Positions 24,510-55,141 of a DNA stretch of 64,000 nt are shown piece after piece. The first letter of the stretch is position 1. Each line of letters starts with the position of its first letter. A program made the translations under genes and the position numbers. Source of the stretch: an uncultured virus (IMG/VR IMGVR_UViG_3300025154_000007) (taxonomy: Duplodnaviria; Heunggongvirae; Uroviricota; Caudoviricetes); the IMG/VR virus record IMGVR_UViG_3300025154_000007, one strand, 5' to 3'. Under the pieces are notes generated by a model. It saw only the letters and a program-made list of their open reading frames with translations, was not told the origin of the DNA and did no database searches.

Positions 24510-26294
24510 TTACATTTCCTCTTCCATATTCAAAGAATAAGCAAATTTCATTCTATCGGTATGATCAAAACCTATCGCACCATTGAAACTTACATAACAA
24601 GGTTCCACTAATTGATAACTTCTAATTTGGTCGAAATTGCAAAAGATAAAAGAAGAATGATTTCCGACTTCATCATACATTTTGGAAAGTTCATATACCA
24701 TTGTTTCTTCCGTAGGCGGAAACGTGATATTGAATTCCCGCCAACCAACCCCGACCGATGCCCATTTCTGCCTGTTTTTTCCGTGGATAACATTATCACT
24801 TCTTTTTTTTGCTACTTTGAAATCAAGCAGGGATGAAGGATCGATTGTCAGATATTCCCCAAGCCATAAACGCCCGATTTCTAAATCGCCCTGCGCCCCG
24901 AAAGTAAACCGCCAATATTTATAATAATAAGTATCGTCAAGGAATTTCAAACTTAAATTCGGGTTAATTGTTATCTGTTCATCCAATTCTGGATCGCCCC
25001 AATCATTAGAATTATTGGCTTGTATGCGGAGATTGTTTCCAGTAAGTAAATTATGGCCCAATACGGCGGCAATATTTACACCCAAACCATAATCAACAGG
25101 CCACCATCCGGCAAGTCCGTCATATTCACCAACCCAAGATTCTTGATTATAAAGTTTTTCAATTTCCCAATCGGCAAGGGCGCGGTTGTAGATGCGGGGG
25201 TCGGCGATATCCCCCGTATAATAGGAAACACTGCCGTCCCTCCCAAGAAGATTCAGCGTACCACTAGATGCGAATTGAGATGCCGGAATAGAAGTGGTAT
25301 TATGTATATTTAGAACACCGTCAAAATAGATATCTACCGAAACTGATGGTGTATATACCCCGGTAATCAAATGCCAATTTCCGTCAAGGGCATTTAGTCC
25401 TATGCATGTTGTTATAAATTGAGTTGTACCGTCAACGGAAATCCTAAAATCAGGATTTGTATTGACAAAAATACTCGGGCCTCTGGAACCCCCGCCGCTG
25501 TCTTTCGTCATCACATATCCGCCGACAGTTGACTTGAACCATAGTGACCATGTAAAAGCTCCTGGTATATTAAGCGACGCGGATAATCTCACAATATCAT
25601 TCACGCCATCCCCGATCAGCCCCCTCCCCGCCGGAGTATCCACCGGAGTCGCACCGACCACCGTGCCGTTGTTCCCGTTGCCCGATTGATCTTCTAGTTG
25701 ATAAGTATAATTTCCGTTTCCGAAATATAAACCATCGACATCAAATACCGTCCCGGCTGATGCCGTATTTGTTCCCAATATCGTCAGAGTTGTAGCCGAT
25801 GCTCCGCCCACAATCAAAGAAGAAAATAAAGCGAATTCAGTGCCAATTCCCGTAATTGTAGAAACTACCGACGCGCCGACTAAAATTGAAACGGTGGTTG
25901 ACAACGCATTAGGAGAACGCAATTTTGTTATCAAAGTTTGGCCGCTTGCCAATGCTACGCCGGAAGCTTTTCTGATGTATGATCCTGCCGTACTTGCCGT
26001 CAGCCGTAGTATTCCATTATATGTAGTATAATCAATTGTTCCGCCTGTAGCAACAAAAGAATATGCACTCCCGGAAAACTCAGTAAATAAAACCGTTCCA
26101 GCACTTGCATCTGGGTACTCAGGAAAAGTATCCAATTCCGCCAACACCGTTTGGCTTGTAGCCGATCCCGATTTCCATACCGTAGTCAACCGCTGATCCT
26201 GGACATCTAAAATACTATATCCGGTTGCCGTGGATAACGCCGTCAAAGTCGAAGCATTCAAATCGTCAATTATATTATCGTACGCCACCCTCAT
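24510..26294 (-). CDS. distal tail protein with inserted LamG/concanavalin-like carbohydrate-binding domain
   Basis: DQSGNGNNGT, FTWSLWFK, DGNWHLITGVY, YFDG, G.IADPRIYNRAL LamG motifs; directly after the tape measure gene. Confidence 0.78.
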   Translation of the reverse strand: MRVAYDNIIDDLNASTLTALSTATGYSILDVQDQRLTTVWKSGSATSQTVLAELDTFPEYPDASAGTVLFTEFSGSAYSFVATGGTIDYTTYNGILRLTASTAGSYIRKASGVALASGQTLITKLRSPNALSTTVSILVGASVVSTITGIGTEFALFSSLIVGGASATTLTILGTNTASAGTVFDVDGLYFGNGNYTYQLEDQSGNGNNGTVVGATPVDTPAGRGLIGDGVNDIVRLSASLNIPGAFTWSLWFKSTVGGYVMTKDSGGGSRGPSIFVNTNPDFRISVDGTTQFITTCIGLNALDGNWHLITGVYTPSVSVDIYFDGVLNIHNTTSIPASQFASSGTLNLLGRDGSVSYYTGDIADPRIYNRALADWEIEKLYNQESWVGEYDGLAGWWPVDYGLGVNIAAVLGHNLLTGNNLRIQANNSNDWGDPELDEQITINPNLSLKFLDDTYYYKYWRFTFGAQGDLEIGRLWLGEYLTIDPSSLLDFKVAKKRSDNVIHGKNRQKWASVGVGWREFNITFPPTEETMVYELSKMYDEVGNHSSFIFCNFDQIRSYQLVEPCYVSFNGAIGFDHTDRMKFAYSLNMEEEM

Positions 26295-29971: not shown

Positions 29972-30517
29972 TTACGCAACCGTCTTGGTATAAATTGTTC
30001 CGGCAGTGGCATACTGTTTTGCGGTCATGGCAAAAGAATAAACCGCAATCGGGTCGGTATCATTATCGGACTTGAAAGCAACCGTCCATCCATTATCCAG
30101 GAAACATTTATTCAGAACATAAGTAGTGGTTTGCGTGGAACCGGAAGCTAGTTTCCGCGTATTCACCAATTTCATTCCCTTACCCGTCAAAACCGAAGTC
30201 TGCCCGCCGACAACCGCCGATCCCGAAGTACCGGTCATGGCCCCGCCGGACAAAGACGAGAAACTGGAACCATCATATTCAACCAAATCAAAAGAAAGTT
30301 TTGCAGTTTCCCGCGCAATACCTTCCAACGGATCAACGGAATTTCCGCCTTGACTCGTAAAAGGTTCCATCACATAATCCATATTTTTTAGCATGCCGGA
30401 ACCGAGATTGACCCAGCCCGCCGCTGCCGCAGTGGCACCAAGCGTGCCTACATACATGATATAGTTACCGGTTTCTATTTTGGCATCCGTTACGGTTGCA
30501 ATCTGATATAAAGCCAT
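29972..30517 (-). CDS. major tail (tube) protein
   Basis: Position after tail terminator and before chaperones; beta-rich, 181 aa; AGGAG RBS. Confidence 0.75.
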   Translation of the reverse strand: MALYQIATVTDAKIETGNYIMYVGTLGATAAAAGWVNLGSGMLKNMDYVMEPFTSQGGNSVDPLEGIARETAKLSFDLVEYDGSSFSSLSGGAMTGTSGSAVVGGQTSVLTGKGMKLVNTRKLASGSTQTTTYVLNKCFLDNGWTVAFKSDNDTDPIAVYSFAMTAKQYATAGTIYTKTVA

Positions 30518-33277: not shown

Positions 33278-33667
33278 TTACTCCGTCGCACGCGGATACT
33301 GGGAAGCAGTCCAAGTAAGCGGCCCTGCACCGGTCTGGGTAAATACAAGTGTTCCCGTCGCACTAAGGAACCTTGCGCCTTCAAATCCCTGTCCGCCGAT
33401 AACCACCGTTGCGGCAGTGCCGATTGAAATAGTCGCGGCACCTTGTCCGATCTCGGAAAAGTTGGCTCCTGCGGCGAGCGACAAAGAAACGCTGGCCGTA
33501 GTGGACGCATTCGCGGCAACAATGGCAAGCGATTTAAAATCAAGAGAACTCTGCGCAGTGGACGCAGAAATAGTCATGGTGTCCGAAGATGCCGAAGTAC
33601 CGGAAGCCGCAACCTGCGCGGCACCAGTAAGAGCAATCGTAGTGGGTTGTAAAGTTCTTGCAGCCAT
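33278..33667 (-). CDS. putative capsid decoration protein (Ala/Ser/Thr-rich)
   Basis: Directly after the major capsid gene, strong GGGAGG RBS, before a terminator. Confidence 0.6.
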   Translation of the reverse strand: MAARTLQPTTIALTGAAQVAASGTSASSDTMTISASTAQSSLDFKSLAIVAANASTTASVSLSLAAGANFSEIGQGAATISIGTAATVVIGGQGFEGARFLSATGTLVFTQTGAGPLTWTASQYPRATE

Positions 33668-43683: not shown

Positions 43684-44076
43684 TTATTCTCCTATCGCAA
43701 TATAAGAATCCATTTTTACTTCAATAATATTCAACCCCAACAATCTTCCATTATGCGGAATAAAATTTAAGTTACTATGTTTTTCATAATCCACCAATAT
43801 AGAAATTTCATATTGCCCAAAATAAATATAGTTTGGTTTTTTCAAATGAGCTGAACTATAATCACGTATTTTTTCCATACAAGTAGAAATCAATTTATCA
43901 TAAGCAGATTGACCCAATATTTCAAACACATTATCCTTAAAATTTATTATCACTTCAAAATCATCATTGGTATCAAAAATTATACTACCATCCATTAATA
44001 TACTATATCCGTCTTTTTCTTTTTTAAAATCCAACACACTTAATAATTTTTCATAATGGTTAACAATGGTGTTCAT
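43684..44076 (-). CDS. hypothetical protein
   Basis: ORF; C-terminus (P.YIY.G..E...LNIIEVKMDSYIAIG) resembles 43161..43526. Confidence 0.55.
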   Translation of the reverse strand: MNTIVNHYEKLLSVLDFKKEKDGYSILMDGSIIFDTNDDFEVIINFKDNVFEILGQSAYDKLISTCMEKIRDYSSAHLKKPNYIYFGQYEISILVDYEKHSNLNFIPHNGRLLGLNIIEVKMDSYIAIGE

Positions 44077-45147
44077 TTCTTATTCTCCTTATCAATCCTT
44101 TCGGGATTAGCAATTTTTTCTTTCTTGCTTCCTTGATCAAACTTATCACCATATTCATTTCCGTCAAAATCTTGTCTTCCTGCCCGACTATCCATAAAAA
44201 GTATTCCCCGGTTTTATATCGTGCCAAACATATATCCGATCCCATCCCCCATTCGCAAAACTTTATTTTTACATCATAACCGTGAATGATATTGCTTTTT
44301 CTCTGGAAGAATTCCTTGTTCATTTTTTATCTAACGTTTCCACAAATTGACATAGCTGATTATACATTCGTTTACAATATTCCGAATCATCCTGCACGTA
44401 TAAAAAATGACCTAGCAAAGCGCTAAATTCAATTTCATCAAAAGTCAATACAATGTTATATTCTTTCTTTTCCTTTGATTCTATTTTCATACTCAATCCT
44501 TCATCCGCGTATTATCAACATCAAACTTAGGCATGGGCATATTACGCATTTGCTTTTCAAACAATTTATTCAATTTTTCTTTTTCAAGAAAATTATATTT
44601 ATTATATAATATAATATTATCATCTTCAAGTTTTTTTACCCTATCCAATAAATCGCAAATGGCATTGAATTGATGATCGCTATCTTCTTCCAAAATAATT
44701 ATTTGCCTCTTCAATTCTTTCTTTTTCATTTCTGCCCCTTATTCTTTTGGATGTTTCAGCATCTCTATTTCCTCAGCAATATTTTTATCTTCGAAACTAT
44801 TTTCTTTGCAGTATAGATCCACCAATTCAGCCGGAATAGCGGCATTATTACTGGATGACATAATAACCGGTATTTTACGCGAGGTAAGCCAGCCAATAAA
44901 TCCGTAAAGCGCGGCGGCAGGTTTTACCCACAAATATTGTTTATCAAACACAACAACTTCTTCTTTACTCATCTTTACTTGCAATTGCAATTCATTCATA
45001 CGTGATTCAAGTTTATTCAATCTCATTAGTATTTCTTTCTTTTTCATAGATCATCCTCCTTATCATTTCCTGAAACATTTATACATGCCATAACACAAAA
45101 AATAATAAACCCGCCAACAAAAATCCTGCAATGAATCCTACCATGAT

Positions 45148-46680
45148 TTACTCCTTCAAACTTTTCTCCAATTGTTCGCCGATCAAATGTTCCCTGATCG
45201 ATATCGCCTCACCGTTTTTATTTACCGCCAAAGGTTCCTCCACAACCTCATGCGTCATATTATATAGATGGGTAAACTTTTGCATATTGGCTTCTATATC
45301 AATTTTATTCACATAATTTATTATTCCTTCCTTGCAATTAGGGCAGGGTTCCCCAACATGCTCCTTTCCGTCATTTGCGGTTATTTTTATTCCGCATTTA
45401 GGACAGGAATAATTTTTTTTGAAATTGGCCATAAATAACGGCAATTCCCTTTTATAATCCAATGTTTCCACAAACGCTATTCCCAATTCCGTTTCAACCA
45501 CAAAAGCATTTACCGAAGCCAAATATAATTCAACGGTTTTCGATATCCATTGTTTTGATTGTTTCGGAAAATCCAACCCCTGTTTCCTTATTACTTTTTT
45601 AATATCCGCATACGGTATTTCCGTTACTGCCCCATGATCCGTGGTATACATTTGTTGCAAGGACAACCGCCACGCCGAAAGGAAATTCTTTTTATAGTAC
45701 AAATGTATTTCTTCCGTGGGCATCCCGTTATTGGATATTTTTTCTGTCGAGCTCCGCGCATAAGGATGTTCATGCTTTTCCCATATAGGCAATTTAGGGC
45801 TTTCTTTATTGAAAGCCGCATTGAATCTATCCCAGAATAATTCATAATTATCGTCAATTAAACATCCGCGTTCTTTTATTTTTTGCGCTTCTATAATTAA
45901 ATTATCATAATTCCATTTATTTAAATTGGCAGTATAATCAGTAAATCTGGCTTTATCCTTGTGATATGCAAAATCGCATCCGGCAAGAAATATATTTCCA
46001 TAGCCCAATTTATCGGCAACGAATAATTGCATAGGCGGCGAACAGGCAAACAACATCATTTCGGTTCTTATATAAAAATGAAAAACCGGCTCGCGCAAAC
46101 TTTCACCTTCCCGATGACTATACATCAATTTCTGGACATTTGCATAAAATGAATCGGCCCTGCCATTATTTTGAAGGTATAGAAGTATTTCATTCGGCCA
46201 GCATTTCAGAATACTCGGGTGGGCTCCGGGATGGGTAATCATTTTCGTTTTTGTCTTGCTCCAGTCAACACCTTCTATTTCCTTGTCAATACAAAACGGA
46301 TCAAGCACCAAAATATGACTAGGTTCTATTCCGTGATACATAAAAGATAACGCATGGGAAGTAGAACAAATTATTCCGCCTTTCCATTCTTTCAGATGCT
46401 CAATCGAATCATCGAGCGAAGGGCCGGAACCGATGACAAAACACGGTATTTTTTCTACCTTCGGCTCATCACTTATATCCCGCGCTCTTCCCGATTTTAT
46501 CGCATCAATAAGCAGTTTCCAATTCTCGCCGCTGTTTACATATTCATGTACCAATTGTTTTTGGGCCGTACCCTGATTATATTCATTGGAATTATGGATG
46601 GTAGATTCTCCCGGTCCGGTTCCTGGCCCATATTGCTTTTCTATTTTTTGCCGGAAATTACCTTCGATTATTTCACTCAT
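45148..46680 (-). CDS. Maf/DUF115 (MptE-like) family protein, putative nonulosonic-acid glycosyltransferase, with C-terminal Zn ribbon
   Basis: CFVIGSGPSLD, GIEP.HI..LDP, LGY.NIFLAGCDFAY; CPKC...CPNC near the C-terminus. Confidence 0.75.
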   Translation of the reverse strand: MSEIIEGNFRQKIEKQYGPGTGPGESTIHNSNEYNQGTAQKQLVHEYVNSGENWKLLIDAIKSGRARDISDEPKVEKIPCFVIGSGPSLDDSIEHLKEWKGGIICSTSHALSFMYHGIEPSHILVLDPFCIDKEIEGVDWSKTKTKMITHPGAHPSILKCWPNEILLYLQNNGRADSFYANVQKLMYSHREGESLREPVFHFYIRTEMMLFACSPPMQLFVADKLGYGNIFLAGCDFAYHKDKARFTDYTANLNKWNYDNLIIEAQKIKERGCLIDDNYELFWDRFNAAFNKESPKLPIWEKHEHPYARSSTEKISNNGMPTEEIHLYYKKNFLSAWRLSLQQMYTTDHGAVTEIPYADIKKVIRKQGLDFPKQSKQWISKTVELYLASVNAFVVETELGIAFVETLDYKRELPLFMANFKKNYSCPKCGIKITANDGKEHVGEPCPNCKEGIINYVNKIDIEANMQKFTHLYNMTHEVVEEPLAVNKNGEAISIREHLIGEQLEKSLKE

Positions 46681-46830
46681 TTATTTTTTCCTTTATTTTA
46701 TTACTATCAACAACAATACTTCTTAAAAAAAGATTTTCTTTCCGCAAACAGTTATTTTCAACTTCTAATTTTATAACTTCAGCTTTAACATCGTGTAAAA
46801 CCGCAACTAATTCAAAAACATCCTTTATAT

Positions 46831-47676
46831 TCATTTATTTATCTCCACAATCTTCCTGAATTCCCTTGCATATCTGGTATATGTTTCCATTCCCTTTCCT
46901 TTCAAAATAAATTCCTCCATCAATACTTCGCAAACCTTGAAATAATGATCATAATCAGTTTCAAAACATTGCCATGGTTCGACCGCATAAGCCAATATCA
47001 ATTTCTTGGGTGGGATCGCGCCTTCAAGATTATTGTCAATTACCGAATCAAACTTCGGTTGCGTTTCCCAGACATTCATTACCCAATCTTTTTTTGCTAT
47101 TCCCCATCCCCCGCACAATTTGGAATATTGCCATAATTTATCCGTTATAACCGGAAGTACATGATACGGTTTTCCGTAGGAACAGGTCATATCATCCATA
47201 TTTTTATAAACAAAGTTTTCCCGATCCGGGCTGTATGTTCCCATTTCATCCGAAGGACAATATTTATTTACCAAATGAAACGCAGAAATCAAATCATCCA
47301 GATCATTCGGCTTTTTAAGCGGCGAAGTGGGAAGCATGGAAATTATTTCATCGGGAAATATACCTTCCTTTCCCAGTTCATGAACCGCGTGGGCAAACGG
47401 TACACCAGCCGTCGTATCGTTGTCCCAAACAGGCCGCCTGACGACTTTTGCTCCGTATTGTAGTCCTATTGCGGCTATCTCCGCGTCATCGGTAGTAAGT
47501 ACTGTCAAATCCACCTGGCGTGCGCAAAGCCCCTGCATTATAGACCATGCAACAAGAGGATGATTGCAAAAACTTTTAATGTTTTTTCTGGGAAGTCGTA
47601 TCGATCCACCTCGCGCCGTAATAAGACATAATACAAATGGTTTTTTTATTTCTGTTTTTTCATTTTCCATATTCAT
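46831..47676 (-). CDS. acylneuraminate/nonulosonate cytidylyltransferase (NeuA/PseF-like)
   Basis: LITARGGSIRLPRKNIK.F...PLVAWSI, V.TTDD.EI, GA.V..RP, LPTSPL, ETD...F. Confidence 0.88.
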   Translation of the reverse strand: MNMENEKTEIKKPFVLCLITARGGSIRLPRKNIKSFCNHPLVAWSIMQGLCARQVDLTVLTTDDAEIAAIGLQYGAKVVRRPVWDNDTTAGVPFAHAVHELGKEGIFPDEIISMLPTSPLKKPNDLDDLISAFHLVNKYCPSDEMGTYSPDRENFVYKNMDDMTCSYGKPYHVLPVITDKLWQYSKLCGGWGIAKKDWVMNVWETQPKFDSVIDNNLEGAIPPKKLILAYAVEPWQCFETDYDHYFKVCEVLMEEFILKGKGMETYTRYAREFRKIVEINK

Positions 47677-47683
47677 TCCTTTT

Positions 47684-48001
47684 TTAATGTTTACTTTTCC
47701 TGTTGACCTTGATTACTTTCCAGCCTTCTTTATATTCATCATTTACAAATACCACCTTGAATCTTTCTTCCGACATATTCCAGCATTCATAATCAAAAAA
47801 TACTTTTCCGTCATCCAATCTGAACCTGCAATGCAATTCCCCGTTTACCGCCAACTTCCTCCCTGTCCGATCAAGTTTTTTATTATATGGTATTTCATAT
47901 CTACCTTCATAAACACCATACCCCATAAAATAACATAAATGCCTTTTAGTATCATTCTTGGAAATAAGCGCGGCCCGGTCATTCGGTTTCAATGGTTCCA
48001 T
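47684..48001 (-). CDS. hypothetical protein
   Basis: AGGAG RBS; GYGVYEG...F.LDDGK.F...ECW. Confidence 0.6.
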   Translation of the reverse strand: MEPLKPNDRAALISKNDTKRHLCYFMGYGVYEGRYEIPYNKKLDRTGRKLAVNGELHCRFRLDDGKVFFDYECWNMSEERFKVVFVNDEYKEGWKVIKVNRKSKH

Positions 48002-48332
48002 TTATTTTCTCCTAAATAACCAGAAAAATCCAAATCGGGAAGTTCCGGCATATCTACGTCCTTTTATACATATAATACGCCCGCCGCCATAAATAAATTG
48101 GCGTATAAATCGTTTTATCATACGCCAAGACCTATAATCAATCTGAATTATCATTTTCTTCCATCCAATTCAATATCACTCAAATCCTTGCATTTTGTCC
48201 CGTCAACAAAAACAATCAATATACGCCCATCATTATCCATTGACGCCTTTGCTATTACTTTCAAATAGCCCCTATGTCGTACTACCCTTCTGACATAATA
48301 TTTTTGTTTAAAATCCTCCGGGGAACGATCAT

Positions 48333-48647
48333 TCATATTATTTTCCTCTTGTCATTTTTCTTCATCATTCTTCTTACTGCCTTGTCTATTTTGGCATATT
48401 TTATTTTCTTATGCCGTTCGATATTATAAAATCTTTCGGTATCTTTATGTATTATTTTATAATAATCAATTGCTATTTCAACATCGGCTATTTCTTTTTC
48501 AATATTATCTAGTTCACCGCCTTTGTTAAGATATTGAAGGATTGCCGCACCCAATTCAGCACATTCCTCAGCAAGTTTGGAATATTGCCAATTCTTCCCG
48601 CTCAATTCAATATTTTTCAAATCATAATCCATTCTAGTCATTTTCAT
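48333..48647 (-). CDS. MazG-like NTP pyrophosphohydrolase
   Basis: KLAEECAEL...IEKEIADV; start set to ATG 48647 overlapping the permease stop. Confidence 0.7.
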   Translation of the reverse strand: MKMTRMDYDLKNIELSGKNWQYSKLAEECAELGAAILQYLNKGGELDNIEKEIADVEIAIDYYKIIHKDTERFYNIERHKKIKYAKIDKAVRRMMKKNDKRKII

Positions 48648-49477
48648 TCTTTGATCGCCCCCGATAACGAATTTACAAAATAGCGAGATGCAAAAATAAA
48701 TATGATCAAAACCGGCAATATCAAAACAACACCTATCGCAAAACTCTGCCCTATGAAATTTTTGTTCCCTTGCAAAGCCCACGCCTGCCCGTACATCGCC
48801 CGGACCATTCCGACCAATGCCGTCAAATTATTGTTTTTCTGCAATTGAAGCGATTGCCATATCCAATCCTGCATTGATCCTATCGATGAAAATATTCCTA
48901 TCGTAGTAACCAACGGCAAGGAAATCGGCATAACAATATAAAACAAAACCTGTATTTCATGCGCTCCATCTATTCTAGCCGATTCAACCAGACTTTTCGG
49001 AATTGAATCAAAATATATCTTGGATAGATATAAAAACATAGGATTGAACAAGCAGGGCAAAATAACCGCCAACAATTCCCCGGACAAATGCAATATATTT
49101 ATAACTTTGAATAATGGGATAATTATTGAAATCCTGGGAACCATTACCCCGAACAATAAAAGCATCCATAATATTTTCTTGAATCTGAATTGATAAAAAG
49201 AAAAAGCATAACCGGCCACTATATTTACAAATATATTACCTATTGTAGTAAACGCCAGAACAACGATGGTATTGAACGCCCATTTTATTATATTCAGATT
49301 ATGCAAAACCACATAATAATTATCCAATGTAGCGTCAAGCGGAAAAAGATTCGGCGGCATGATTATAAATTTCGTATTCTGGTACAAACTGCCGATGAAT
49401 AAAAAATACATAGGGAATAAAACTATAGCCGCCAAAATGATTATAAGTATCTTACTGAATATAACACGTTGCTTCAT
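48644..49477 (-). CDS. carbohydrate ABC transporter permease (MalG-like)
   Basis: Six TM segments; TLDNY, AGYAFS.Y.F..K, IPKSLVESARIDGA (EAA loop), F...L.GAIKE. Confidence 0.93.
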   Translation of the reverse strand: MKQRVIFSKILIIILAAIVLFPMYFLFIGSLYQNTKFIIMPPNLFPLDATLDNYYVVLHNLNIIKWAFNTIVVLAFTTIGNIFVNIVAGYAFSFYQFRFKKILWMLLLFGVMVPRISIIIPLFKVINILHLSGELLAVILPCLFNPMFLYLSKIYFDSIPKSLVESARIDGAHEIQVLFYIVMPISLPLVTTIGIFSSIGSMQDWIWQSLQLQKNNNLTALVGMVRAMYGQAWALQGNKNFIGQSFAIGVVLILPVLIIFIFASRYFVNSLSGAIKE

Positions 49478-50328
49478 TTATTTATTCCAATTTCTATTTT
49501 ATTTTTTAATAAAGTCATTCCTATGGTAATGAATAATAAAATGATCGCCCCCGCACTTGCCATCCCGTGTTTTGACAAAGTAAACGCCATATCATATATA
49601 TTATATACAATCGTGGCAGTATATTCGTAAGGAGCCAAAAACTGTATTGTTTCAAAAATAGCCATTGCGTTTATCGCGGACATGAATCCGAGCATCATCA
49701 ATATGGGGAATATCTGCGGAAGTATTATTTTTATTTTTATCTGGAACCATGAAGCTCCGTCAATTTGCGCTTGATCAAACATTGACGTTTCAATTGACAG
49801 AATGGAAGCCAGAATCATTATCGCATTTGTTCCTAGGGATGCCATTATGACCACAAAAGAAATAGCCGGTATCCCGGTAATACCTTGTGCAAACCAGACA
49901 ATTGATTTTATGCCACAAATATTCAGCAACCAATTCAACGGCCCATTCAAATGAAAAATCCATTTCCACATTGAAGCTATAAATACACCAGCCGAAATTA
50001 TCGGAATATAAAAAGCGAACCGAACGAAATCATGCCATTTTTTTGAAAGATTGCAACTGAGCAATGCGAGAAAACCAGCCCCGCCAATCTGCCCGATGAC
50101 CAATAAAATAATATAAAAAAGACTATTGAATATTGATTGAATAAATGCCTTATTTGAAAACAAGTTTATGTAGTTTTTCACCCCTACAAACTTGGAAGTT
50201 ATAAAATTGGTTTTTTGCATGGATAAAATAAACAATTCATACAAAGGCCAAAATATAAATAATCCCGCCAACAATACGGCAGGAAGCAAAAAGATATATT
50301 TTATTTTATCTCCGGCATGTTTTATCAA
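49474..50328 (-). CDS. carbohydrate ABC transporter permease (MalF/UgpA-like)
   Basis: YIFLLPA, FVG.KNY..LF, R.AFYIP.I, W.WIF...G.LN, DQAQIDGAS.FQ (EAA loop), G.ASA.A.IL. Confidence 0.93.
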   Translation of the reverse strand: MIKHAGDKIKYIFLLPAVLLAGLFIFWPLYELFILSMQKTNFITSKFVGVKNYINLFSNKAFIQSIFNSLFYIILLVIGQIGGAGFLALLSCNLSKKWHDFVRFAFYIPIISAGVFIASMWKWIFHLNGPLNWLLNICGIKSIVWFAQGITGIPAISFVVIMASLGTNAIMILASILSIETSMFDQAQIDGASWFQIKIKIILPQIFPILMMLGFMSAINAMAIFETIQFLAPYEYTATIVYNIYDMAFTLSKHGMASAGAIILLFITIGMTLLKNKIEIGINK

Positions 50329-50634
50329 CTATTTTCTCCAATAGTGCATTATTTCATTTAAGGTCATTTTATCTTTTGAATAATGATATACCGGGATTCC
50401 GTCTTTTTTATCCAACTTATACAAATTGGATTTATAGTCGAATATATCCCATGATTCAAATAATTTTCTATAATTATTTCCATTGGCAATATAATTAAAT
50501 TTCCTTACTTTTTTATTCGCTAAATGTTTTCCATATTTGCCATAACCGCCGCTTTTAATTATCGGAACTTTTTTCATGCTTCTGCTCATAAGTTCCTCCA
50601 TTATAAAATATGCCGGTTTAAGGTTCACCGGCAA
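50329..50634 (-). CDS. hypothetical basic protein inserted in the ABC operon
   Basis: ANKKVRK....NG..YRK.F.SWDI.DY; start uncertain. Confidence 0.55.
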   Translation of the reverse strand: MPVNLKPAYFIMEELMSRSMKKVPIIKSGGYGKYGKHLANKKVRKFNYIANGNNYRKLFESWDIFDYKSNLYKLDKKDGIPVYHYSKDKMTLNEIMHYWRK

Positions 50635-50645
50635 CCTTATTCTAT

Positions 50646-51920
50646 TTACTCTTCCAGGGCTTCGTTCAGCGCCTTTTCATATTCAGCAATCGCGGCTTCC
50701 GGCGCAATAGCCAAATTCAAAACCTTTTGGAGGATCGGGAAATGAACCGGCCTTGTCGCGGAAAACTTCGCATTCGTCAAACCGACATCGAACAAGCCAT
50801 TATTTTTCATGATGCCCATGATTGCGTTCAGATTCTTGTCATCCATAAGCATCTTGACATCGGATCGATTCGGAATGACCGAAGCCAATGACATTTGACT
50901 TTGGATATAACCATCATTCATATATTCCACCAATCGGGCGGCGACTTTATCTTTCGCGGTTCCCGTCTTGTGAATTACAAACGCGGCATTCATCATATAT
51001 GTAGGCACATTCTTAACGGAAAAATCACGCGGGAACGGAACATACTTTACTTCAAACGGCTTCGCAATAAACTTTTGCTGAATGGCCGTATCCCAATATG
51101 GGCCCATCCATGCCGCGAAAAACGCTGTAGCCGCATAATTGCCCTTCGCCCATTCCGCCGCGTAATCATCGTCATTCAGCATCGCCGCGCCATCGGGAAT
51201 ATATTTATTTTTAGCAAGCGCCTGAAAAAATTCATACGCTTTGGCACCTCCGGTTTCCCTTATCGTAGTACGGGAATAATCGCCCGGCTTATAAAACTTT
51301 GCTCCGAATGAAGCAAACCAATTATTGATCAAATAATCACCAGACGTATTGGCGGCGAACATTCCAGTAGCAAACTTCTTTCCGCCATAATAATCCTTCA
51401 CTTTTTCAGCCATGACAATGAAATCGAAAATAGTCCAATTATCAGGAACGACATATCCGATTTCCTTCATCATATCCATATTGATACACATACCTTGCGG
51501 AGCGCCGGGAACAGGAAGCGCAAGAACTTTACCATTCCGCTTATACGGATCGAGTACGCCAGAATTATACTTTCCCAAGTCCCGGATATAAGTATCAAGC
51601 GGCAGGGCATATTCCGGCAGGATCAATTTGGATGACCGCACCAGAGTATCGTTATAAATATTCGGGGCCTGCCCGGAAGCCAAAAGCGCATCAAGGGAAA
51701 GCGTCGCCCCAGTCTTCAAATCAACCTGAAGCAATTCCACCTTGGCATCGGGAAAATCCTTCAAAAGCTTGGGAAGTGCGTAATCATAATAAAAAGACTT
51801 TCCTTTCATTTCACCGGAAAGCAAAATCATCTTTGTATCGGTAGTCAAGAAAGTAATATTCTGCGCAAAAGAAAAAACCGAAATAAAAGCCGCCATGAAA
51901 ATAAATAGATGTTTCTTCAT
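50646..51920 (-). CDS. ABC transporter sugar-binding protein
   Basis: Signal peptide (..FSFA-Q), LASGQAPNI, PLD.YI, G...ALP, .N.D...E.G...P..WT..DF; 424 aa; upstream of two permeases. Confidence 0.9.
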   Translation of the reverse strand: MKKHLFIFMAAFISVFSFAQNITFLTTDTKMILLSGEMKGKSFYYDYALPKLLKDFPDAKVELLQVDLKTGATLSLDALLASGQAPNIYNDTLVRSSKLILPEYALPLDTYIRDLGKYNSGVLDPYKRNGKVLALPVPGAPQGMCINMDMMKEIGYVVPDNWTIFDFIVMAEKVKDYYGGKKFATGMFAANTSGDYLINNWFASFGAKFYKPGDYSRTTIRETGGAKAYEFFQALAKNKYIPDGAAMLNDDDYAAEWAKGNYAATAFFAAWMGPYWDTAIQQKFIAKPFEVKYVPFPRDFSVKNVPTYMMNAAFVIHKTGTAKDKVAARLVEYMNDGYIQSQMSLASVIPNRSDVKMLMDDKNLNAIMGIMKNNGLFDVGLTNAKFSATRPVHFPILQKVLNLAIAPEAAIAEYEKALNEALEE

Positions 51921-51943
51921 TCTTTTCTCCTATAGAATTTTAT

Positions 51944-52630
51944 TTAAAAAGAAACCTTGACGGAAGCGCACCACGTATCATCGAACAAAACATAATTCAT
52001 TTCAAAAACAATCCCCGCAATAACCGAAGCCTTGACTCCGAAATCGGAAGTAAAATCTTCCGTCTGAAAATTATAAGCGGTATTGTAATAGGGCTTCAAA
52101 TATTTATCACCGCCGAACTTATAATCTACGCTTCCGGCAACGTCATACGTCGGAGAATCAATAAGCTCATCGGCGGTAAATGTTCCCGAAAGTCCGACCG
52201 GTCCGAATACACTTCCCGATGCGACATCAAAAGTTCCGACAAAATCCGCCGTTCCCTTCGCCGGATCATTGACGACATCCGTATACGATACCGCCGGAGT
52301 CAAAGTAAAAATATCCGAAAGATTCAAATCATAGGCGAGCTTCCCCTTCCAGGATTCATTTAGCTTACCCGTCACCGTAAAAGAATTGACGGTGTATGAC
52401 GCAGTAAAAGTCGGCCAACCCGAAGATACCACCCCGTTATCAACCGCAATTGATTGTTCCAGCCCGATAGAAACCGGCCCCTTGACCGGCATCGCGTAAT
52501 CGAACGAAGTTGAATTGCTGTAAACACCTTCATCCGTATACGCAAACTTTGAACTGCCGGACAAACCGACTTCCGCAAAAGCAAATCCCGCAATGAGCAC
52601 CAACGCAAAAATAATAAAAATTTTCTTCAT
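51944..52630 (-). CDS. putative outer-membrane beta-barrel / porin
   Basis: Signal peptide AGFAFA-E, alternating amphipathic beta-strands, C-terminal WCASVKVSF with terminal Phe. Confidence 0.65.
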   Translation of the reverse strand: MKKIFIIFALVLIAGFAFAEVGLSGSSKFAYTDEGVYSNSTSFDYAMPVKGPVSIGLEQSIAVDNGVVSSGWPTFTASYTVNSFTVTGKLNESWKGKLAYDLNLSDIFTLTPAVSYTDVVNDPAKGTADFVGTFDVASGSVFGPVGLSGTFTADELIDSPTYDVAGSVDYKFGGDKYLKPYYNTAYNFQTEDFTSDFGVKASVIAGIVFEMNYVLFDDTWCASVKVSF

Positions 52631-53002
52631 GTTTTTTCTCCCAAAGACAAATATTCAGGTTCGACCCAAACCACGATGCCACCCGGAATAGTTGCGCACA
52701 TTGCGGTTCCCAACAATACATTGAAAATAATAAATACCAAATCTTCACCCGTCCGATTGTCAACTACCTTCGTTTCCGCCTTTACCTCCTGAATCTGTTC
52801 TGCTGTCATTTCTGATTTTCCTCCTTTTCTTCCGCCAATTCCAATTGATCGCAATTAAGCCATAATATATTTCCATTAAGGTATTTACATTTTACACCAC
52901 GATGGGAAAAATCATAGTCATATTTTATAAATATAAATATTTCACCGGTTTTAATATATCGTAATTTGGTTCCCGGTTCCATATCTTCAAACTGTTCTAC
53001 AA

Positions 53003-53272
53003 TCAAATACTATTCCTTTTATCAAAAAATCTATTTCTTATATAATTAACGGGCCGCCAAAACACATTTCCTACAATTCTAAGCCGCAACGTAAAAAAGA
53101 AATACTTAATCGGATGCTTTTTATTTTCAAGTTGTATTGTTTTGAACCAAAGCGTATCTTCAATATTAACATATTCTTCGACCTTCTTAATTCCTTCTTT
53201 TTCACATTCTTCTAATACTCCATCTTCTTTCAAAAAATCATCAAAAGAACTGCCAATATTTTCTTTTCCCAT
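53003..53272 (-). CDS. hypothetical protein with antitoxin-like N-terminus
   Basis: IGSSFDDFLKEDG.LEE N-terminal motif. Confidence 0.5.
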   Translation of the reverse strand: MGKENIGSSFDDFLKEDGVLEECEKEGIKKVEEYVNIEDTLWFKTIQLENKKHPIKYFFFTLRLRIVGNVFWRPVNYIRNRFFDKRNSI

Positions 53273-53489
53273 TTAATTACTCCTTTTTCAAATTATCTTT
53301 GTTCAAAAACAACACGGGAATATTTATCATTTTAATCATATTATCAATAACGGTTTTATCATTCGCATTTTTATATAATTCGGACATGGCATTGAACATT
53401 TCCGTAAGTTCCTTATACGGCGGATTTATAATTTCATATTTTTGATCAGGAGAAAACACCATTCCACTACCCATAATAGTTTTCTTCAT

Positions 53490-54125
53490 CTAATTGCTCC
53501 TTTCAATGACTTTAGATACTCCGGTTTTATTGTCCTTGCTAACTTCAAATATTTTATCGGCAATATTGCAGACATCGGCACTGTAAACCGAATTACTGTT
53601 TATTATAAATTGCAAGCCTAATTCCTTTGACAACTTCCTTATTATTTCAAATCCTTTTACATTCAATTCACGCGGCTGAAGGAACTTAAATGGCTCATCC
53701 AATATAATCACATTATCGGATTTTCCCAAACTCCAAGCCGCAATCCGCAAAGCAAACGAAGTCAAATCGACCAAGCCACCGCCGCATTGATTCATGGGGT
53801 CATCCAATTCTATTCCATTCTGCCGCAATACCAATTCCGCTTCCGTCTTTCCGCGCTTTATTTCAAAGTTTACATCGAAAACATATTCATCCGGGAAACA
53901 AGTATCTAAACATAAATTAACCAAATCGGATATTTGGTATTTTATTTGCTCTTGCGTATCCTTGGCTACCTGCTGGATAAATGCCTGCGCCTTTTCCAAT
54001 ACGATAATATTATTATTCGTACTAAATAGATTATTTTCATAATCTTGTAGCTTCGATGCCAAAAGCTCTCTTTTACCTTTCATTTTATTTATCTTTTCGG
54101 AATAAATATTTGATTGGAAATTCAT
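53490..54125 (-). CDS. Rad50/SbcC-like ATPase, C-terminal half
   Basis: Coiled coil, then signature-like QCGGG..D..SFALR and Walker B IILDEPF. Confidence 0.82.
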   Translation of the reverse strand: MNFQSNIYSEKINKMKGKRELLASKLQDYENNLFSTNNNIIVLEKAQAFIQQVAKDTQEQIKYQISDLVNLCLDTCFPDEYVFDVNFEIKRGKTEAELVLRQNGIELDDPMNQCGGGLVDLTSFALRIAAWSLGKSDNVIILDEPFKFLQPRELNVKGFEIIRKLSKELGLQFIINSNSVYSADVCNIADKIFEVSKDNKTGVSKVIERSN

Positions 54126-54292
54126 TATATGTCCTTTATAGCGTCTAAAACACAATCAATCTGTAAAAAACTATCAAGCACAGATTTTATATAATTTTCA
54201 TCTTGAAAACTATTATAAATAGTCATTAAAGCATTGCCATACCATTTAACGCCCTTAATATAATAAGAAAAAGCTACACTAATTCTTTTCAT

Positions 54293-54505
54293 TTATTCAT
54301 CTTCTACATAAATATAATAATAAAGACCAGTACTAGAAATATTTTTAGCATTTGGAAATTGTTTCTTTATTCCTTCCAAGCCTATACCAGCTTTAACAAT
54401 ATAAATTTTCCCTGCACCCTCATCGGAATAAAGTCTACGCATACCGACAATCTGACAACTAGAAAATAACATAGCCACTAAAACAATAAAAATAAACCCT
54501 TTCAT
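54293..54505 (-). CDS. small lipoprotein
   Basis: MKGFIFIVLVAMLFSSC lipobox; GGAGG RBS. Confidence 0.62.
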   Translation of the reverse strand: MKGFIFIVLVAMLFSSCQIVGMRRLYSDEGAGKIYIVKAGIGLEGIKKQFPNAKNISSTGLYYYIYVEDE

Positions 54506-54741
54506 ATTTCCTCCCAATCGCATAGAGCTTGTAATTTAGAAACTAGCTTTTCTTTTTTCTGGTTACATTTTTGCAAACTATCCCTATATTCTTTCATCTT
54601 TTCATCTATCCCATCTATATCTATTTCATAATCTTTTTTTACTTGTTCTTCAATTTTAGCCTTGGCGCCTTCCGCCCTGGCCTTATTTGTTTTAGCAGCT
54701 TCGATCTTTTCGCGTAATGCGGTAAATTCTTTAACTGTCAT
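54502..54741 (-). CDS. coiled-coil protein
   Basis: Heptad-rich; between the Mre11-like gene and the Rad50 C-half. Confidence 0.6.
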   Translation of the reverse strand: MTVKEFTALREKIEAAKTNKARAEGAKAKIEEQVKKDYEIDIDGIDEKMKEYRDSLQKCNQKKEKLVSKLQALCDWEEI

Positions 54742-55139: not shown

Positions 55140-55141
55140 AA

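What the first reader, a model, noticed from the sequence alone, without database searches (positions are those of the whole stretch)
45148..52630. Phage-encoded import-activate-transfer pathway for a sialic-acid-like (nonulosonate) sugar
Seen: one co-directional block in a tailed phage genome holds a beta-barrel-like protein, a sugar-binding protein, two ABC permeases, a NeuA/PseF-like cytidylyltransferase (ARGGS..KN, PTSPL) and a Maf/DUF115-like protein (GSGPSL, G.D.AY). I found no nonulosonate synthase (NeuB/PseI) in the window. Established: NeuA/PseF enzymes make CMP-nonulosonates, and Maf proteins transfer these to Ser/Thr of flagellin. Inference: the phage scavenges the sugar rather than making it, activates it, and O-glycosylates either its own virion or host flagellin/surface proteins. 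Several virion proteins here (33278..33667, 29972..30517, 24510..26294) are visibly Ser/Thr/Ala-rich. Small unrelated genes are interspersed, so functional linkage between the transporter and the enzymes is unproven.
Basis: partly seen in the sequence, partly recalled or inferred. Interest (0 to 1): 0.92.

Follow-up and report, generated by a model that had tools for sequence, protein, structure and literature searches.

The report
Phage sugar-import and protein-glycosylation cassette
A groundwater tailed phage carries a conserved gene set that appears to import a sialic-acid-like sugar, activate it with CMP and attach it to a still unknown protein, while sister phages carry genes to make such a sugar in place of the importer.

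Summary
All six genes are present at the stated coordinates, on the minus strand of a roughly 69-kb siphovirus-like phage genome. They encode an outer-membrane-protein-like protein, a sugar-binding protein, two ABC permeases, a NeuA/PseF-like cytidylyltransferase and a Maf-like transferase with a C-terminal zinc ribbon.

- **Conserved order:** of 36 related viral loci, 22 keep the order binding protein, permeases, cytidylyltransferase, Maf. Ten are too truncated to judge.
- **Alternative supply:** the other 4 carry sugar-synthesis genes next to cytidylyltransferase–Maf instead of the importer; three include a NeuB-family synthase.
- **No overlap:** NeuB and the importer were never seen on the same contig.
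- **Gene fusion:** one relative fuses the cytidylyltransferase and Maf into a single protein.
- **Active sites:** both acidic residues critical in the solved Maf align with conserved aspartates.

Several things remain open: the sugar's identity, the binding protein's ligand, the acceptor protein (virion or host), the host organism, and the source of the missing ABC ATPase. No cellular copy of this Maf clade was found, and I found no paper describing such a phage system. The logic matches bacterial sialic-acid scavenging, so this is a new variant of a known kind.

The parts
51944..52630 (-). 228-aa secreted, all-beta, outer-membrane-protein-like protein; possible outer-membrane channel for the cargo
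   Evidence: It has a signal peptide and a C-terminal ...VKVSF, and no Pfam, NCBIfam or PHROG match. Only 4 relatives exist among 1.84 billion cluster representatives. My AlphaFold model is all-beta but weak, at pLDDT 40.3. The Atlas model aligns to porins at TM 0.53-0.73, and its feature search points to the KdgM porin family at 0.93 with 158 shared features, which is a lead only. Other secreted proteins ending in F sit directly upstream of the binding protein in L001, L006 and L017.
50646..51920 (-). 424-aa periplasmic substrate-binding protein of a CUT1-type (cluster D) ABC importer; ligand inferred to be a free ulosonic acid
   Evidence: The AlphaFold model has pLDDT 92.2, and the fold matches solved sugar-binding proteins. 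The family has 131 members at E <= 0.001, mostly on phage-sized contigs. Signal peptides are of the signal-peptidase-I type: 3 of 116 have a lipobox-like motif. The best PDB sequence match is the 9rsi/9ru4 series, 'sugar ABC transporter, sugar-binding protein', at 57 bits alone and 75 bits by profile; its ligand is unknown to me.
50329..50634 (-). 101-aa conserved small protein of unknown role, probably not part of the pathway
   Evidence: Homologues occur in L007 and L015, and also in L014, which has no importer. No family match.
49474..50328 (-). ABC permease, MalF/UgpA/GlcT-like, 284 aa
   Evidence: PF00528 at 31.6 bits; GlcT 72.5 bits and UgpA 63.5 bits, both below cut-off. An EAA-like loop ...DQAQIDGAS... 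is visible in the translation; the motif is recalled.
48644..49477 (-). ABC permease, MalG/UgpE/GlcU-like, 277 aa
   Evidence: PF00528 at 44.5 bits; GlcU 91.1, UgpE 84.9 and MalG 79.4 bits. An EAA loop ...ESARIDGAHE... is visible in the translation.
48333..48782 (-). MazG-like NTP pyrophosphohydrolase; the listed GTG start overlaps the permease, so the true start is probably an internal Met. Interspersed gene, role in the pathway doubtful
   Evidence: phrog_2245 at E 1.4e-10 over residues 56-145. A homologue sits between the two permeases in L006.
48151..48336 (-). 61-aa conserved small protein, unknown
   Evidence: Homologues in L006, L007, L009 and L014.
47684..48001 (-). 105-aa conserved small protein, unknown, usually just upstream of the cytidylyltransferase
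   Evidence: Homologues in L006, L007, L009, L011, L012 and L015. No family match.
46831..47676 (-). 281-aa CMP-ulosonate synthetase (NeuA/PseF-like cytidylyltransferase)
   Evidence: PF02348 at 45.6 bits; PseF 77.2 bits, below its cut-off. The family profile matches solved NeuA enzymes at E 8e-33 to 4e-20, against 9e-11 for the best KdsB. S25, R27, P29, K31, T117, D210, W235, Q236 and D241 are invariant across 26 sequences.
46673..46834 (-). 53-aa ORF between the cytidylyltransferase and Maf, unknown
   Evidence: ORF only. No family match and no tblastn match in the related loci.
45148..46680 (-). 510-aa Maf-like glycosyltransferase (PF01973 core, residues 66-179) with a phage-specific C-terminal half and a CxxC...CxxC zinc ribbon
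   Evidence: PF01973 at 56.0 bits. The family profile's best PDB match is 5mu5 at E 8.3e-6. D127 (invariant) and D236 (at least 90%) align with E324 and D415 of 5mu5, the residues reported as critical for activity. C426, C429, C446 and C449 are invariant. The family has 255 relatives at E <= 0.001.

Best explanation
The block is one functional cassette of a virulent-looking siphophage of a diderm host.

Proposed path:
1. A secreted outer-membrane-protein-like protein may let the sugar through the outer membrane.
2. A periplasmic binding protein and two permeases bring a free sialic-acid-like ulosonic acid into the infected cell. They are powered by a host MsiK/MsmK-type ATPase, because the phage encodes none.
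3. The NeuA/PseF-like enzyme joins the sugar to CMP.
4. The Maf-like transferase puts it on Ser/Thr of a protein.

What is shown here: the domains, the conserved catalytic residues, the conserved gene order, and the exchange of the importer for sugar-synthesis genes in sister phages (NeuB seen in three of four).

What is inferred: the cargo, the use of a host ATPase, and the acceptor. I favour virion proteins as acceptor (about 45%) over host flagellin or another host protein (about 25%). Two observations favour the virion. The cassette always sits beside or inside the head and packaging genes. This Maf clade also lacks the flagellin-recognition parts known from bacteria.
For: Domains and fold:
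- Domain matches as listed in the observation check.
- The fold of the binding protein matches solved sugar-binding proteins.

Synteny:
- The 36 related viral loci found with the Maf alignment were mapped by tblastn.
- 22 have binding protein and/or permeases upstream of cytidylyltransferase-Maf in the same order.
- 4 have synthesis genes instead.
- 10 are cut too short to tell.

Synthesis variants:
- L014 and L021 carry class-III aminotransferase, methyltransferase, radical-SAM/SPASM, NeuB (PF03102, 149.7 and 119.3 bits), B12-radical-SAM and GmhA-like SIS in the importer's slot.
- L011 carries the SIS and aminotransferase genes at its cut end.
- L031/L106 carries Maf, then a PseC/LegC-like aminotransferase, an SDR, NeuB (228.5 bits) and a second type of cytidylyltransferase.
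- L093, a further contig, carries Maf, then a PseB/LegB-like dehydratase (226.3 bits) and a NeuB fragment.

Mutual exclusion and switching:
- NeuB relatives occur only in contigs without importer genes.
- On the cytidylyltransferase tree the synthesis type appears in at least 2 places nested among importer types; well-supported branches force 2 changes.

Coupling and activity:
- L038 fuses both enzymes into one 687-aa ORF.
- L030 has a BNR_2 sialidase-like gene (65.6 bits) directly upstream of its binding protein.
- The cytidylyltransferase profile matches NeuA far better than KdsB.
- The catalytic equivalents of 5mu5 E324 and D415 are conserved.

Precedent and integrity:
- PF01547-type sialic-acid ABC importers that borrow the shared ATPase MsmK are known (PMC8461474, passages).
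- In a scan anchored on the portal, 13 of 14 loci with at least 7 kb upstream carry Maf.
- Contigs from other groundwater samples bridge both borders of the block at even depth.
Against: - No ligand evidence exists. The solved relatives of the binding protein with a named ligand bind neutral oligosaccharides, and fold scores do not separate them.
- The cytidylyltransferase matches curated models mainly in its N-terminal 120 residues and stays below every equivalog cut-off.
- No ABC ATPase is present in the roughly 69-kb genome or in the related cassettes I scanned. Import therefore depends on an unidentified host protein.
- Five small genes and a MazG-like gene are interspersed.
- The host is unknown, so neither its flagella nor its own sugar pathways can be checked.
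- One portal relative with 7.6 kb of upstream sequence (L081) lacks the cassette, so it is accessory.
- Conserved synteny within one lineage is partly inheritance, not independent evidence.
- The Ser/Thr richness of the 129-aa capsid-neighbour protein (28.7%) is composition only.
Confidence: 0.7

Rival explanations
1. The pathway is as described, but its acceptor is a host protein such as flagellin, a pilin or another surface protein. The purpose would be to mask a receptor, stop motility or exclude other phages, not to decorate the virion.
For: All characterised Maf enzymes act on flagellin (passages in 10.1101/2020.06.03.131540; abstract of 10.1101/2023.12.03.569772). Flagellar ulosonic-acid glycans are discussed as affecting flagellotropic phages (passages). 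Nothing here excludes a host acceptor.
Against: Only the PF01973 core of the phage protein matches any Pfam family. There is no TPR domain and no relative of the clade in one genome from each of 185,579 species. In bacteria the acceptor choice lies in a C-terminal TPR domain or in a separate factor, GlfM (abstract). The phage clade instead has its own C-terminal half with a zinc ribbon. The phage shows no lysogeny genes, so lasting modification of the host seems of little use. The host and its flagella are unknown.
Confidence: 0.25
2. The importer is an ordinary auxiliary metabolic module that takes up a neutral oligosaccharide for energy or carbon. It only happens to lie next to cytidylyltransferase-Maf, which would use a sugar made by the host.
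For: The nearest solved binding proteins with a named ligand bind arabino-, malto-, chito-, cello- or xylo-oligosaccharides. The permeases resemble glucose, maltose and glycerol-3-phosphate systems. Unrelated small genes are interspersed.
Against: The importer lies upstream of cytidylyltransferase-Maf in all 22 importer-bearing loci, despite identities of only 23-55%. The 4 loci without it carry sugar-synthesis genes instead, three with NeuB, and the two supply types never coincide. The exchange happened at least twice on the cytidylyltransferase tree. A sialidase-like gene abuts the binding protein in L030. The binding-protein family consists almost wholly of proteins on phage-sized contigs.
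Confidence: 0.12
3. The Maf-like enzyme transfers the CMP-activated sugar to something other than a protein, for example phage DNA or a lipid or glycan carrier.
For: The C-terminal zinc ribbon is a motif often found in nucleic-acid-binding proteins; this is recalled. Source annotations call relatives 'RpoP' or 'Com'. Phage glycosyltransferases that hypermodify DNA exist (10.1101/2023.12.21.572611, search listing only).
Against: No hydroxymethylase, TET/JBP-like or thymidylate-synthase-like gene was found among 60 scanned ORFs. The PF01973 core and its catalytic residues match protein O-glycosyltransferases. I know of no precedent for ulosonic acids on DNA.
Confidence: 0.05
4. The block is host DNA joined to phage DNA by misassembly, or the host flank of a provirus.
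For: The nearest held record, G001, is labelled 'provirus' and does not contain the block. ABC transporter genes look like host genes.
Against: G001 runs from window 54125 to 64000, then 5.2 kb, then window 1 onward. It is therefore a permuted piece of the same roughly 69-kb genome. Phage genes flank the block on both sides, and 22 related phage loci carry the same arrangement. In another groundwater data set, contigs bridge both borders (44046-46391 and 52240-53615) at an even depth of 5.5-6.1. GC content in the block is 0.35-0.40, within the window's range of 0.29-0.46.
Confidence: 0.02
5. The PF01973 protein is a true MptE-type 6-hydroxymethylpterin diphosphokinase, not a glycosyltransferase.
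For: Pfam names PF01973 'MptE-like'.
Against: The best solved match is the Maf structure 5mu5, and both of its critical acidic residues are conserved. The gene is always next to, and in L038 fused to, a CMP-sugar synthetase, and sits beside NeuB clusters in sister phages. No pterin or folate genes were seen.
Confidence: 0.02

Closest known systems
Bacterial sialic-acid 'precursor scavenging' for surface decoration, e.g. Haemophilus influenzae: uptake by SiaPQM, CMP-Neu5Ac synthetase SiaB, then sialyltransferases (pathway recalled; transporter families read in PMC8461474)
   Same: The three-step logic is the same: take up a free sialic-acid-like sugar that the cell does not make, activate it with CTP, and transfer it to a surface molecule.
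   Different: Here all three steps are encoded by a phage. The importer is a CUT1-type ABC system without its ATPase. The transferase is a Maf-type protein O-glycosyltransferase rather than a lipooligosaccharide sialyltransferase.
Maf flagellin glycosylation islands (Campylobacter, Helicobacter, Aeromonas, Magnetospirillum Maf PDB 5mu5, Geobacillus, Clostridium)
   Same: They share the PF01973 core, both critical acidic residues, and linkage to a CMP-ulosonate synthetase and, in sister phages, to NeuB, PseB and PseC-like genes.
   Different: There is no flagellin gene, no TPR domain and no recognisable GlfM. The C-terminal half is phage-specific with a zinc ribbon. No member was found in cellular genomes. 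The sugar is supplied by import in most members.
PF01547 (cluster D) sialic-acid ABC importers: ST6 SatEFG of Streptococcus pneumoniae and ST7 SatXYZ of Ruminococcus gnavus (PMC8461474)
   Same: Same binding-protein superfamily, with two MalFG-type permeases and, as a rule, no ATPase of their own, using the shared MsmK instead (passages).
   Different: Membership could not be tested because no reference sequences were at hand. The phage binding protein forms its own family. Those systems feed catabolism, whereas this one sits beside an activation and transfer pair.
Mycobacteriophage virion glycosylation (Freeman et al. 2023; seen only as a title in a reference list; content recalled)
   Same: Phage-encoded glycosyltransferases decorate the phage's own capsid and tail proteins. 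This is the precedent for the virion reading.
   Different: As recalled, those phages use ordinary nucleotide-sugar glycosyltransferases and host sugar pools. They have no importer, no CMP-ulosonate step and no Maf.
Sugar and transport genes in cyanophages: KdsA/KdsB (PMC12801897, passages) and the phosphate-binding protein PstS (recalled)
   Same: These are phage-borne genes for CMP-activated ulosonic acid (Kdo) synthesis, or a phage-borne periplasmic binding protein.
   Different: Those are single steps thought to boost host pathways. No permeases, no dedicated transferase and no import/synthesis alternation have been described.

Membership tests
Maf (PF01973, flagellin ulosonic-acid O-glycosyltransferase) | PF01973 domain above Pfam's gathering score | tested here: met
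   56.0 bits against 34.6, residues 66-179. The same domain is found in the relatives scanned.
Maf (PF01973, flagellin ulosonic-acid O-glycosyltransferase) | Acidic residues equivalent to E324 and D415 of Magnetospirillum Maf (5mu5), reported as critical for activity | tested here: met
   The profile alignment places LLE(324) on the phage LD127 and GVD(415) on the phage GCD236. D127 is invariant and D236 at least 90% conserved in 34 sequences. The residue roles come from passages of 10.1101/2020.06.03.131540.
Maf (PF01973, flagellin ulosonic-acid O-glycosyltransferase) | Genomic linkage to CMP-ulosonate synthesis | tested here: met
   The cytidylyltransferase lies directly upstream in the window and in 31 of the 36 related loci (tblastn). 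In 4 of the other 5 the locus begins at or just before Maf. In the fifth, L031, a second type of cytidylyltransferase lies downstream. The two enzymes are fused in L038. NeuB, PseB and PseC-like genes are adjacent in sister phages.
Maf (PF01973, flagellin ulosonic-acid O-glycosyltransferase) | Flagellin as acceptor, recognised by a C-terminal TPR domain or a GlfM partner, with a flagellar gene neighbourhood | tested here: not met
   No TPR or other Pfam domain lies beyond the core. No flagellar gene was found in the window. The C-terminal half gave no usable Atlas match. The true acceptor cannot be tested with these tools.
CMP-nonulosonate synthetase (PF02348; NeuA/PseF/LegF) | PF02348 domain above the gathering score | tested here: met
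   45.6 bits against 22.6, but only residues 17-90 align.
CMP-nonulosonate synthetase (PF02348; NeuA/PseF/LegF) | Reaches the score of a curated equivalog (PseF TIGR03584, or the KdsB models) | tested here: not met
   PseF scores 77.2 bits against 205.7, and the KdsB models score 33.6 bits or less. The sugar cannot be named from these models.
CMP-nonulosonate synthetase (PF02348; NeuA/PseF/LegF) | Closer to nonulosonate (NeuA) than to octulosonate (KdsB) enzymes | tested here: met
   A profile of 26 family members matches NeuA structures at E 7.7e-33 (9ftb) to 3.8e-20 (1eyr). The best KdsB match is 8.7e-11.
CUT1-type binding-protein-dependent ABC importer | Cluster D/SBP_bac_1 binding protein plus two PF00528 permeases | tested here: met
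   The binding protein is assigned by fold and by its relatives' PF01547/PF13416 domains. Both permeases are above the cut-off.
CUT1-type binding-protein-dependent ABC importer | A cognate ATP-binding subunit | tested here: not met
   No ABC transporter ATPase appeared in any ORF scanned in the window, in the rest of the genome or in the related cassettes. The ATPase-like ORF at 53490-54155 is the C-terminal half of a split SbcC. A host ATPase is inferred.
Sialic-acid ABC importers ST6 (SatEFG) and ST7 (SatXYZ) | Orthology of the binding protein to SatE or SatX, and binding of Neu5Ac or 2,7-anhydro-Neu5Ac | not tested
The ligand of the best PDB sequence match (9rsi/9ru4 series) could not be found.
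KdgM/NanC family of small acidic-sugar porins | PF06178 match, or a confident 12-stranded barrel resembling KdgM/NanC | tested here: inconclusive
   No Pfam match and a poor AlphaFold model. The Atlas feature hit to a KdgM cluster scores 0.93 with 158 shared features, under the tool's guide value of 170. The structure row for KdgM gives TM 0.54.
MptE 6-hydroxymethylpterin diphosphokinase | Pterin or folate pathway context, with a short single-domain protein | tested here: not met
   The protein has 510 aa, sits in a sugar-activation context, and its best solved match is a Maf. The typical size and context of MptE are recalled.

The most novel reading that the evidence does not exclude
A widespread lineage of environmental siphophages coats its own virions, for example the Ser/Thr/Ala/Gly-rich 129-aa protein encoded next to the capsid gene or the tail tube, with sialic-acid-like sugars. 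It does so with a phage-only, zinc-ribbon-bearing clade of Maf transferases. The lineage swaps the sugar supply among three interchangeable modules: import from the environment through a phage-built route across both membranes, a GmhA/NeuB/radical-SAM pathway to an unusual ulosonic acid, or a Pse/Leg-like pathway. The virion surface chemistry would then depend on what the phage can scavenge or make.
Probability: 0.4. Interest if true: 0.9.

Novelty: new variant of a known kind. Interest (0 to 1): 0.78.

Why it matters
**Firsts.** If correct, this is the first phage-encoded Maf-type protein glycosyltransferase. It is also the first case of a phage building a multi-part importer to obtain a building block for a modification rather than for energy or nucleotides.

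**A natural experiment.** The alternation between importing and making the sugar, on a conserved activation and transfer core, assigns a role to proteins that sequence models cannot name.

**Practical value.**
- Sialic-acid-like coats change charge, stability and recognition of surfaces, so this bears on how environmental phages persist and are recognised.
- The phage enzymes could serve as compact tools for attaching such sugars to chosen proteins.
- The binding-protein family offers candidate binders for rare ulosonic acids.

Tried and rejected
**Searches that found nothing**
- blastn of the block against 50,697 phage records: no match.
- Own assembly not held. The nearest record, G001, lacks the block only because it is another piece of the same genome.
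- The Maf alignment against one genome from each of 185,579 species: 44 pattern matches, none a relative. The scan depends on patterns, so absence is not proven.
- tRNA scan: none.
- No RNA holder was listed among the sequencing runs.

**Structure and binding attempts**
- Complex prediction of Maf with the 129-aa Ser/Thr-rich protein returned 'no answer', score 0.00. This is no evidence either way.
- The AlphaFold model of the 228-aa protein was too poor (pLDDT 40.3) to search with.
- The Atlas search with the Maf C-terminal half gave nothing usable; all TM values were below 0.5.
- Foldseek and VIA-align on the binding-protein model give tied scores across many sugar-binding proteins and do not point to a ligand.
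- The ligand of the best PDB sequence match (9rsi/9ru4 series) could not be found.

**Uninformative analyses**
- Promoter and terminator scan: 55 promoter-like sites against 43.5 +/- 7.2 in shuffles, and 5 terminator-like sites against 8.2 +/- 2.6.
- Host clues are weak. Two metagenome-bin labels (Bacteroidales, Deltaproteobacteria) sit on phage-like contigs. Gln follows the hydrophobic core of the signal peptide in only 30 of 116 binding proteins by a crude parse.

**Ideas set aside**
- The DNA-hypermodification idea found no supporting genes.

**Unavailable**

**Sequences left out of alignments**
- A1 uses 33 of the best 120 listed Maf relatives (255 in all), plus the window protein.
- A2 uses 30 of the 131 binding-protein relatives, plus the window protein.
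- A4 and the tree use 25 of 32 locus cytidylyltransferases. Left out: L010, L022 and L027 (truncated), L024 and L025 (same as L023), L035 (near-identical to L034) and L038 (the fusion).

Full report
**1. What is there**

The stretch 45148-52630 holds eleven ORFs, all on the minus strand. In reading direction they are:
- a 228-aa secreted protein (51944-52630);
- a 424-aa binding protein (50646-51920);
- a 101-aa ORF;
- two permeases (49474-50328 and 48644-49477);
- a MazG-like ORF;
- ORFs of 61 and 105 aa;
- a 281-aa cytidylyltransferase (46831-47676);
- a 53-aa ORF;
- a 510-aa PF01973 protein (45148-46680).

Pfam places both permeases in PF00528 (31.6 and 44.5 bits). It places the cytidylyltransferase in PF02348 (45.6 bits, cut-off 22.6) and the last protein in PF01973 (56.0 bits, cut-off 34.6). 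NCBIfam ranks PseF first for the cytidylyltransferase, at 77.2 bits. That is under its cut-off of 205.7 and ahead of the KdsB models. The permeases come next to the GlcTU, UgpAE and MalG models.

The binding protein has no Pfam match of its own. Its model (pLDDT 92.2) has the fold of ABC sugar-binding proteins.

The 228-aa protein has a signal peptide, is predicted all-beta and ends in ...VKVSF. My model of it is poor, at pLDDT 40.3. The Atlas's own model aligns with porins at TM 0.53-0.73, and a KdgM-family hit is a lead only. The protein has only four relatives among 1.84 billion cluster representatives.

**2. The block belongs to a phage**

The window carries the following phage genes:
- replication genes: helicases, DnaB-like helicase, DNA polymerase, clamp loader, UvsX-like recombinase;
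- lysis genes: SLT and amidase;
- tail genes, including a 1007-aa tape measure;
- capsid, scaffold, portal and terminase genes;
- a split SbcC together with SbcD.

The nearest held record, G001, matches window 54125-64000, then 5.2 kb, then window 1 onward, at 99.9-100% identity. The genome is therefore about 69 kb and circular or permuted, and the block lies inside it. The longest contig carrying these proteins is 69,543 bases.

In groundwater metagenomes, one 25.7-kb contig spans 43800-53700 without a difference. That contig may be the source of the window. In another data set (filed twice, as X5 and X6), contigs tile the stretch at an even depth of about 5-6. Two of those contigs bridge the borders, at 44046-46391 and 52240-53615. 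A chimeric host fragment is very unlikely.

**3. Are the genes linked?**

Scans of viral contigs with the Maf protein and with an alignment of 34 Maf-like proteins returned 36 loci. In one genome from each of 185,579 bacterial and archaeal species, the alignment found no relative among 44 pattern matches.

A tblastn map with the window's proteins sorts the 36 loci as follows:
- 22 show binding protein and/or permeases upstream of cytidylyltransferase-Maf in the window's order, at 23-55% identity for the binding protein;
- 10 are cut off too close to the enzymes to tell;
- 4 have no importer.

Some loci are near-copies of each other (L023/L024/L025, L009/L010, L033-L035), so the independent count is lower.

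**4. The four loci without an importer are the key result**

- In L014 and L021 the importer's slot holds a class-III aminotransferase, a methyltransferase, a radical-SAM/SPASM protein and a NeuB-family synthase (149.7 and 119.3 bits). The synthase is nearest the NeuB_NnaB model, then PseI, both below cut-off. The slot also holds a B12-binding radical-SAM enzyme and a GmhA-like isomerase. L014 has a UDP-galactopyranose mutase as well.
- L011 begins with the same isomerase and aminotransferase.
- The contig of L031/L106 carries Maf, a PseC/LegC-like aminotransferase, an SDR, a full NeuB (228.5 bits), a second type of cytidylyltransferase and a methyltransferase. All lie between terminase and portal.

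A further contig found through its portal, L093, has Maf, a PseB/LegB-like dehydratase (226.3 bits) and a NeuB fragment.

Relatives of NeuB were found only on contigs without importer genes, and none in the window or the rest of its genome. On a tree of 26 cytidylyltransferases, the synthesis type sits in at least two places nested among importer types. One of those places is inside the window's own well-supported clade.

So the lineage keeps an activation and transfer core and exchanges what feeds it: an importer or a synthase pathway. That is the strongest available argument that the importer's cargo is the sugar the synthetase activates, or a sugar at or beyond the NeuB step.

**5. Further links**

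- In L038 the cytidylyltransferase and Maf are one 687-aa ORF with both Pfam domains.
- In L030 a BNR_2 (sialidase-like, 65.6 bits) gene lies directly upstream of the binding protein. An aldo/keto reductase and a class-III aminotransferase lie between the binding protein and the permeases, which hints at release and tailoring of the imported sugar.
- Secreted proteins ending in Phe lie directly upstream of the binding protein in L001, L006 and L017. They are unrelated in sequence to the window's 228-aa protein. The position seems to be kept for an outer-membrane protein, which together with signal-peptidase-I-type binding proteins points to a diderm host.
- A scan anchored on the portal, which does not depend on Maf, kept the best 80 of 273 relatives. 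Of the 14 loci with at least 7 kb upstream of the portal, 13 carry Maf. Twelve of the 14 are contigs already known from the Maf scan. Of the two new ones, L093 has Maf and L081 does not.

**6. Are the enzymes likely active?**

*Maf.* The Maf-family profile finds the Magnetospirillum Maf structure 5mu5 as its best solved match, at E 8.3e-6. A preprint that I read in passages (10.1101/2020.06.03.131540) states three things:
- E324 and D415 of that protein are critical;
- the domain is a modified GT-A fold related to GT42 sialyltransferases;
- Maf enzymes accept Neu5Ac and Kdo donors as well as their native sugars.

In the alignment, E324 falls on the invariant D127 and D415 on D236, which is at least 90% conserved.

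*Cytidylyltransferase.* The family keeps S25, R27, P29, K31, T117, D210, W235-Q236 and D241 invariant. Its profile matches NeuA structures at E 7.7e-33 to 3.8e-20, against 8.7e-11 for KdsB.

**7. What is missing**

*No ATPase.* No ABC ATPase is encoded in the genome or in the related cassettes I scanned. The ATPase-like ORF at 53490-54155 is the C-terminal half of a split SbcC. Both permeases keep an EAA-type loop, the ATPase docking site (motif recalled; sequence). Sialic-acid importers of the same binding-protein family normally use the shared ATPase MsmK (PMC8461474). Use of a host ATPase is therefore a reasonable inference, but it is not shown.

*No ligand.* Fold and sequence comparisons do not reveal the ligand.

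**8. The acceptor**

Known Maf enzymes choose flagellin through a C-terminal TPR domain or a partner, GlfM (abstract of 10.1101/2023.12.03.569772). The phage clade has neither. It has its own C-terminal half with four invariant cysteines.

The core pair always lies beside or within the packaging and head genes, and in L008 between portal and capsid gene. The 129-aa protein encoded just after the capsid gene is 28.7% Ser+Thr and 31% Ala+Gly, and it is conserved in six relatives.

These points make virion proteins my preferred acceptor, but they are circumstantial. A host protein remains a serious rival.

**9. Comparison with what is known, and novelty**

The logic equals bacterial sialic-acid scavenging for surface decoration (recalled). 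The parts belong to known superfamilies.

What appears new:
- the carrier is a phage;
- the Maf clade is found only in viral contigs;
- the importer is dedicated to feeding a modification;
- import and two kinds of synthesis alternate as the supply.

Five full-text searches listed no paper on a phage Maf or a phage ulosonic-acid import cassette. Subscription journals are not covered by that library.

I rate this a new variant of a known kind, with interest 0.78. Confidence in the pathway reading is 0.7, and in the virion as acceptor about 0.45.

Noticed in passing
alignment A4, e.g. L026:8734-9570, L033:2400-3236, L014:9109-9954: Many cytidylyltransferase homologues carry a short conserved C-terminal tail, roughly K-[YH]-x-G-N-x-x-Q(Q), after a variable linker. 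The window's protein ends before it. It could be a docking or targeting peptide.
   Followed up: no
L038:110-2173: Cytidylyltransferase and Maf are fused in one 687-aa ORF. L007, L017 and L039 carry two Maf-like genes each.
   Followed up: partly
L030:137-1327 and L030:2646-4447: A BNR_2 sialidase-like protein without an obvious signal peptide lies directly upstream of the binding protein. An aldo/keto reductase and a class-III aminotransferase are inserted between the binding protein and the permeases.
   Followed up: partly
L014:1235-8941 and L021:2570-9068: An unusual sugar pathway pairs a GmhA-like heptose-phosphate isomerase with a NeuB-like synthase, a B12-radical-SAM enzyme, a radical-SAM/SPASM protein and a class-III aminotransferase. 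The product may be a methylated amino ulosonic acid with more or fewer than nine carbons. [quoted passage not shown]
   Followed up: no
window 53490-54155, 55142-56026 and 56529-57449: SbcC is split into an N-terminal gene and a C-terminal gene that flank SbcD, with small ORFs between. The same split is seen in L001, L021, L026 and L033-L035.
   Followed up: no
window 3780-6026: A 748-aa fusion of a helicase (ResIII and Helicase_C) with an N6/N4 DNA methylase.
   Followed up: no
window 33278-33667: A 129-aa protein with 28.7% Ser+Thr, 31% Ala+Gly and only 7% charged residues is encoded directly after the capsid gene. It is conserved in L008, L016, L021, L023, L032 and L037. It is likely a capsid decoration protein and is a candidate acceptor.
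   Followed up: partly
L081:5357-7531 and L020:8949-11291: Large terminase genes of 724 and 780 aa. The L081 gene contains an intein splicing domain.
   Followed up: no
L015:8845-9558, L009:6735-7490, L022:2125-4686 and L027:3806-4402: Cargo genes are inserted in or beside the cassette in relatives: a dCMP-deaminase-like gene between cytidylyltransferase and Maf, a DNA methylase between the permeases, RtcB plus a radical-SAM gene, and a Vut_1 vitamin-uptake-type transporter. The cassette region seems to be a hotspot for insertions.
   Followed up: no
window 52016-52387 and 49546-49651 (runs X5/X6): A second, diverged variant contig covers part of the 228-aa gene (20 differences in 372 bases). 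A run of 12 differences lies in the first permease. Both suggest co-existing strains that differ most in the envelope-facing parts.
   Followed up: no
G001 (L005:10844-11782): The 5.2 kb of the genome outside the window encodes a DUF7666 plus pentapeptide-repeat protein. G001 is labelled 'provirus' although it is a permuted piece of this phage genome.
   Followed up: partly
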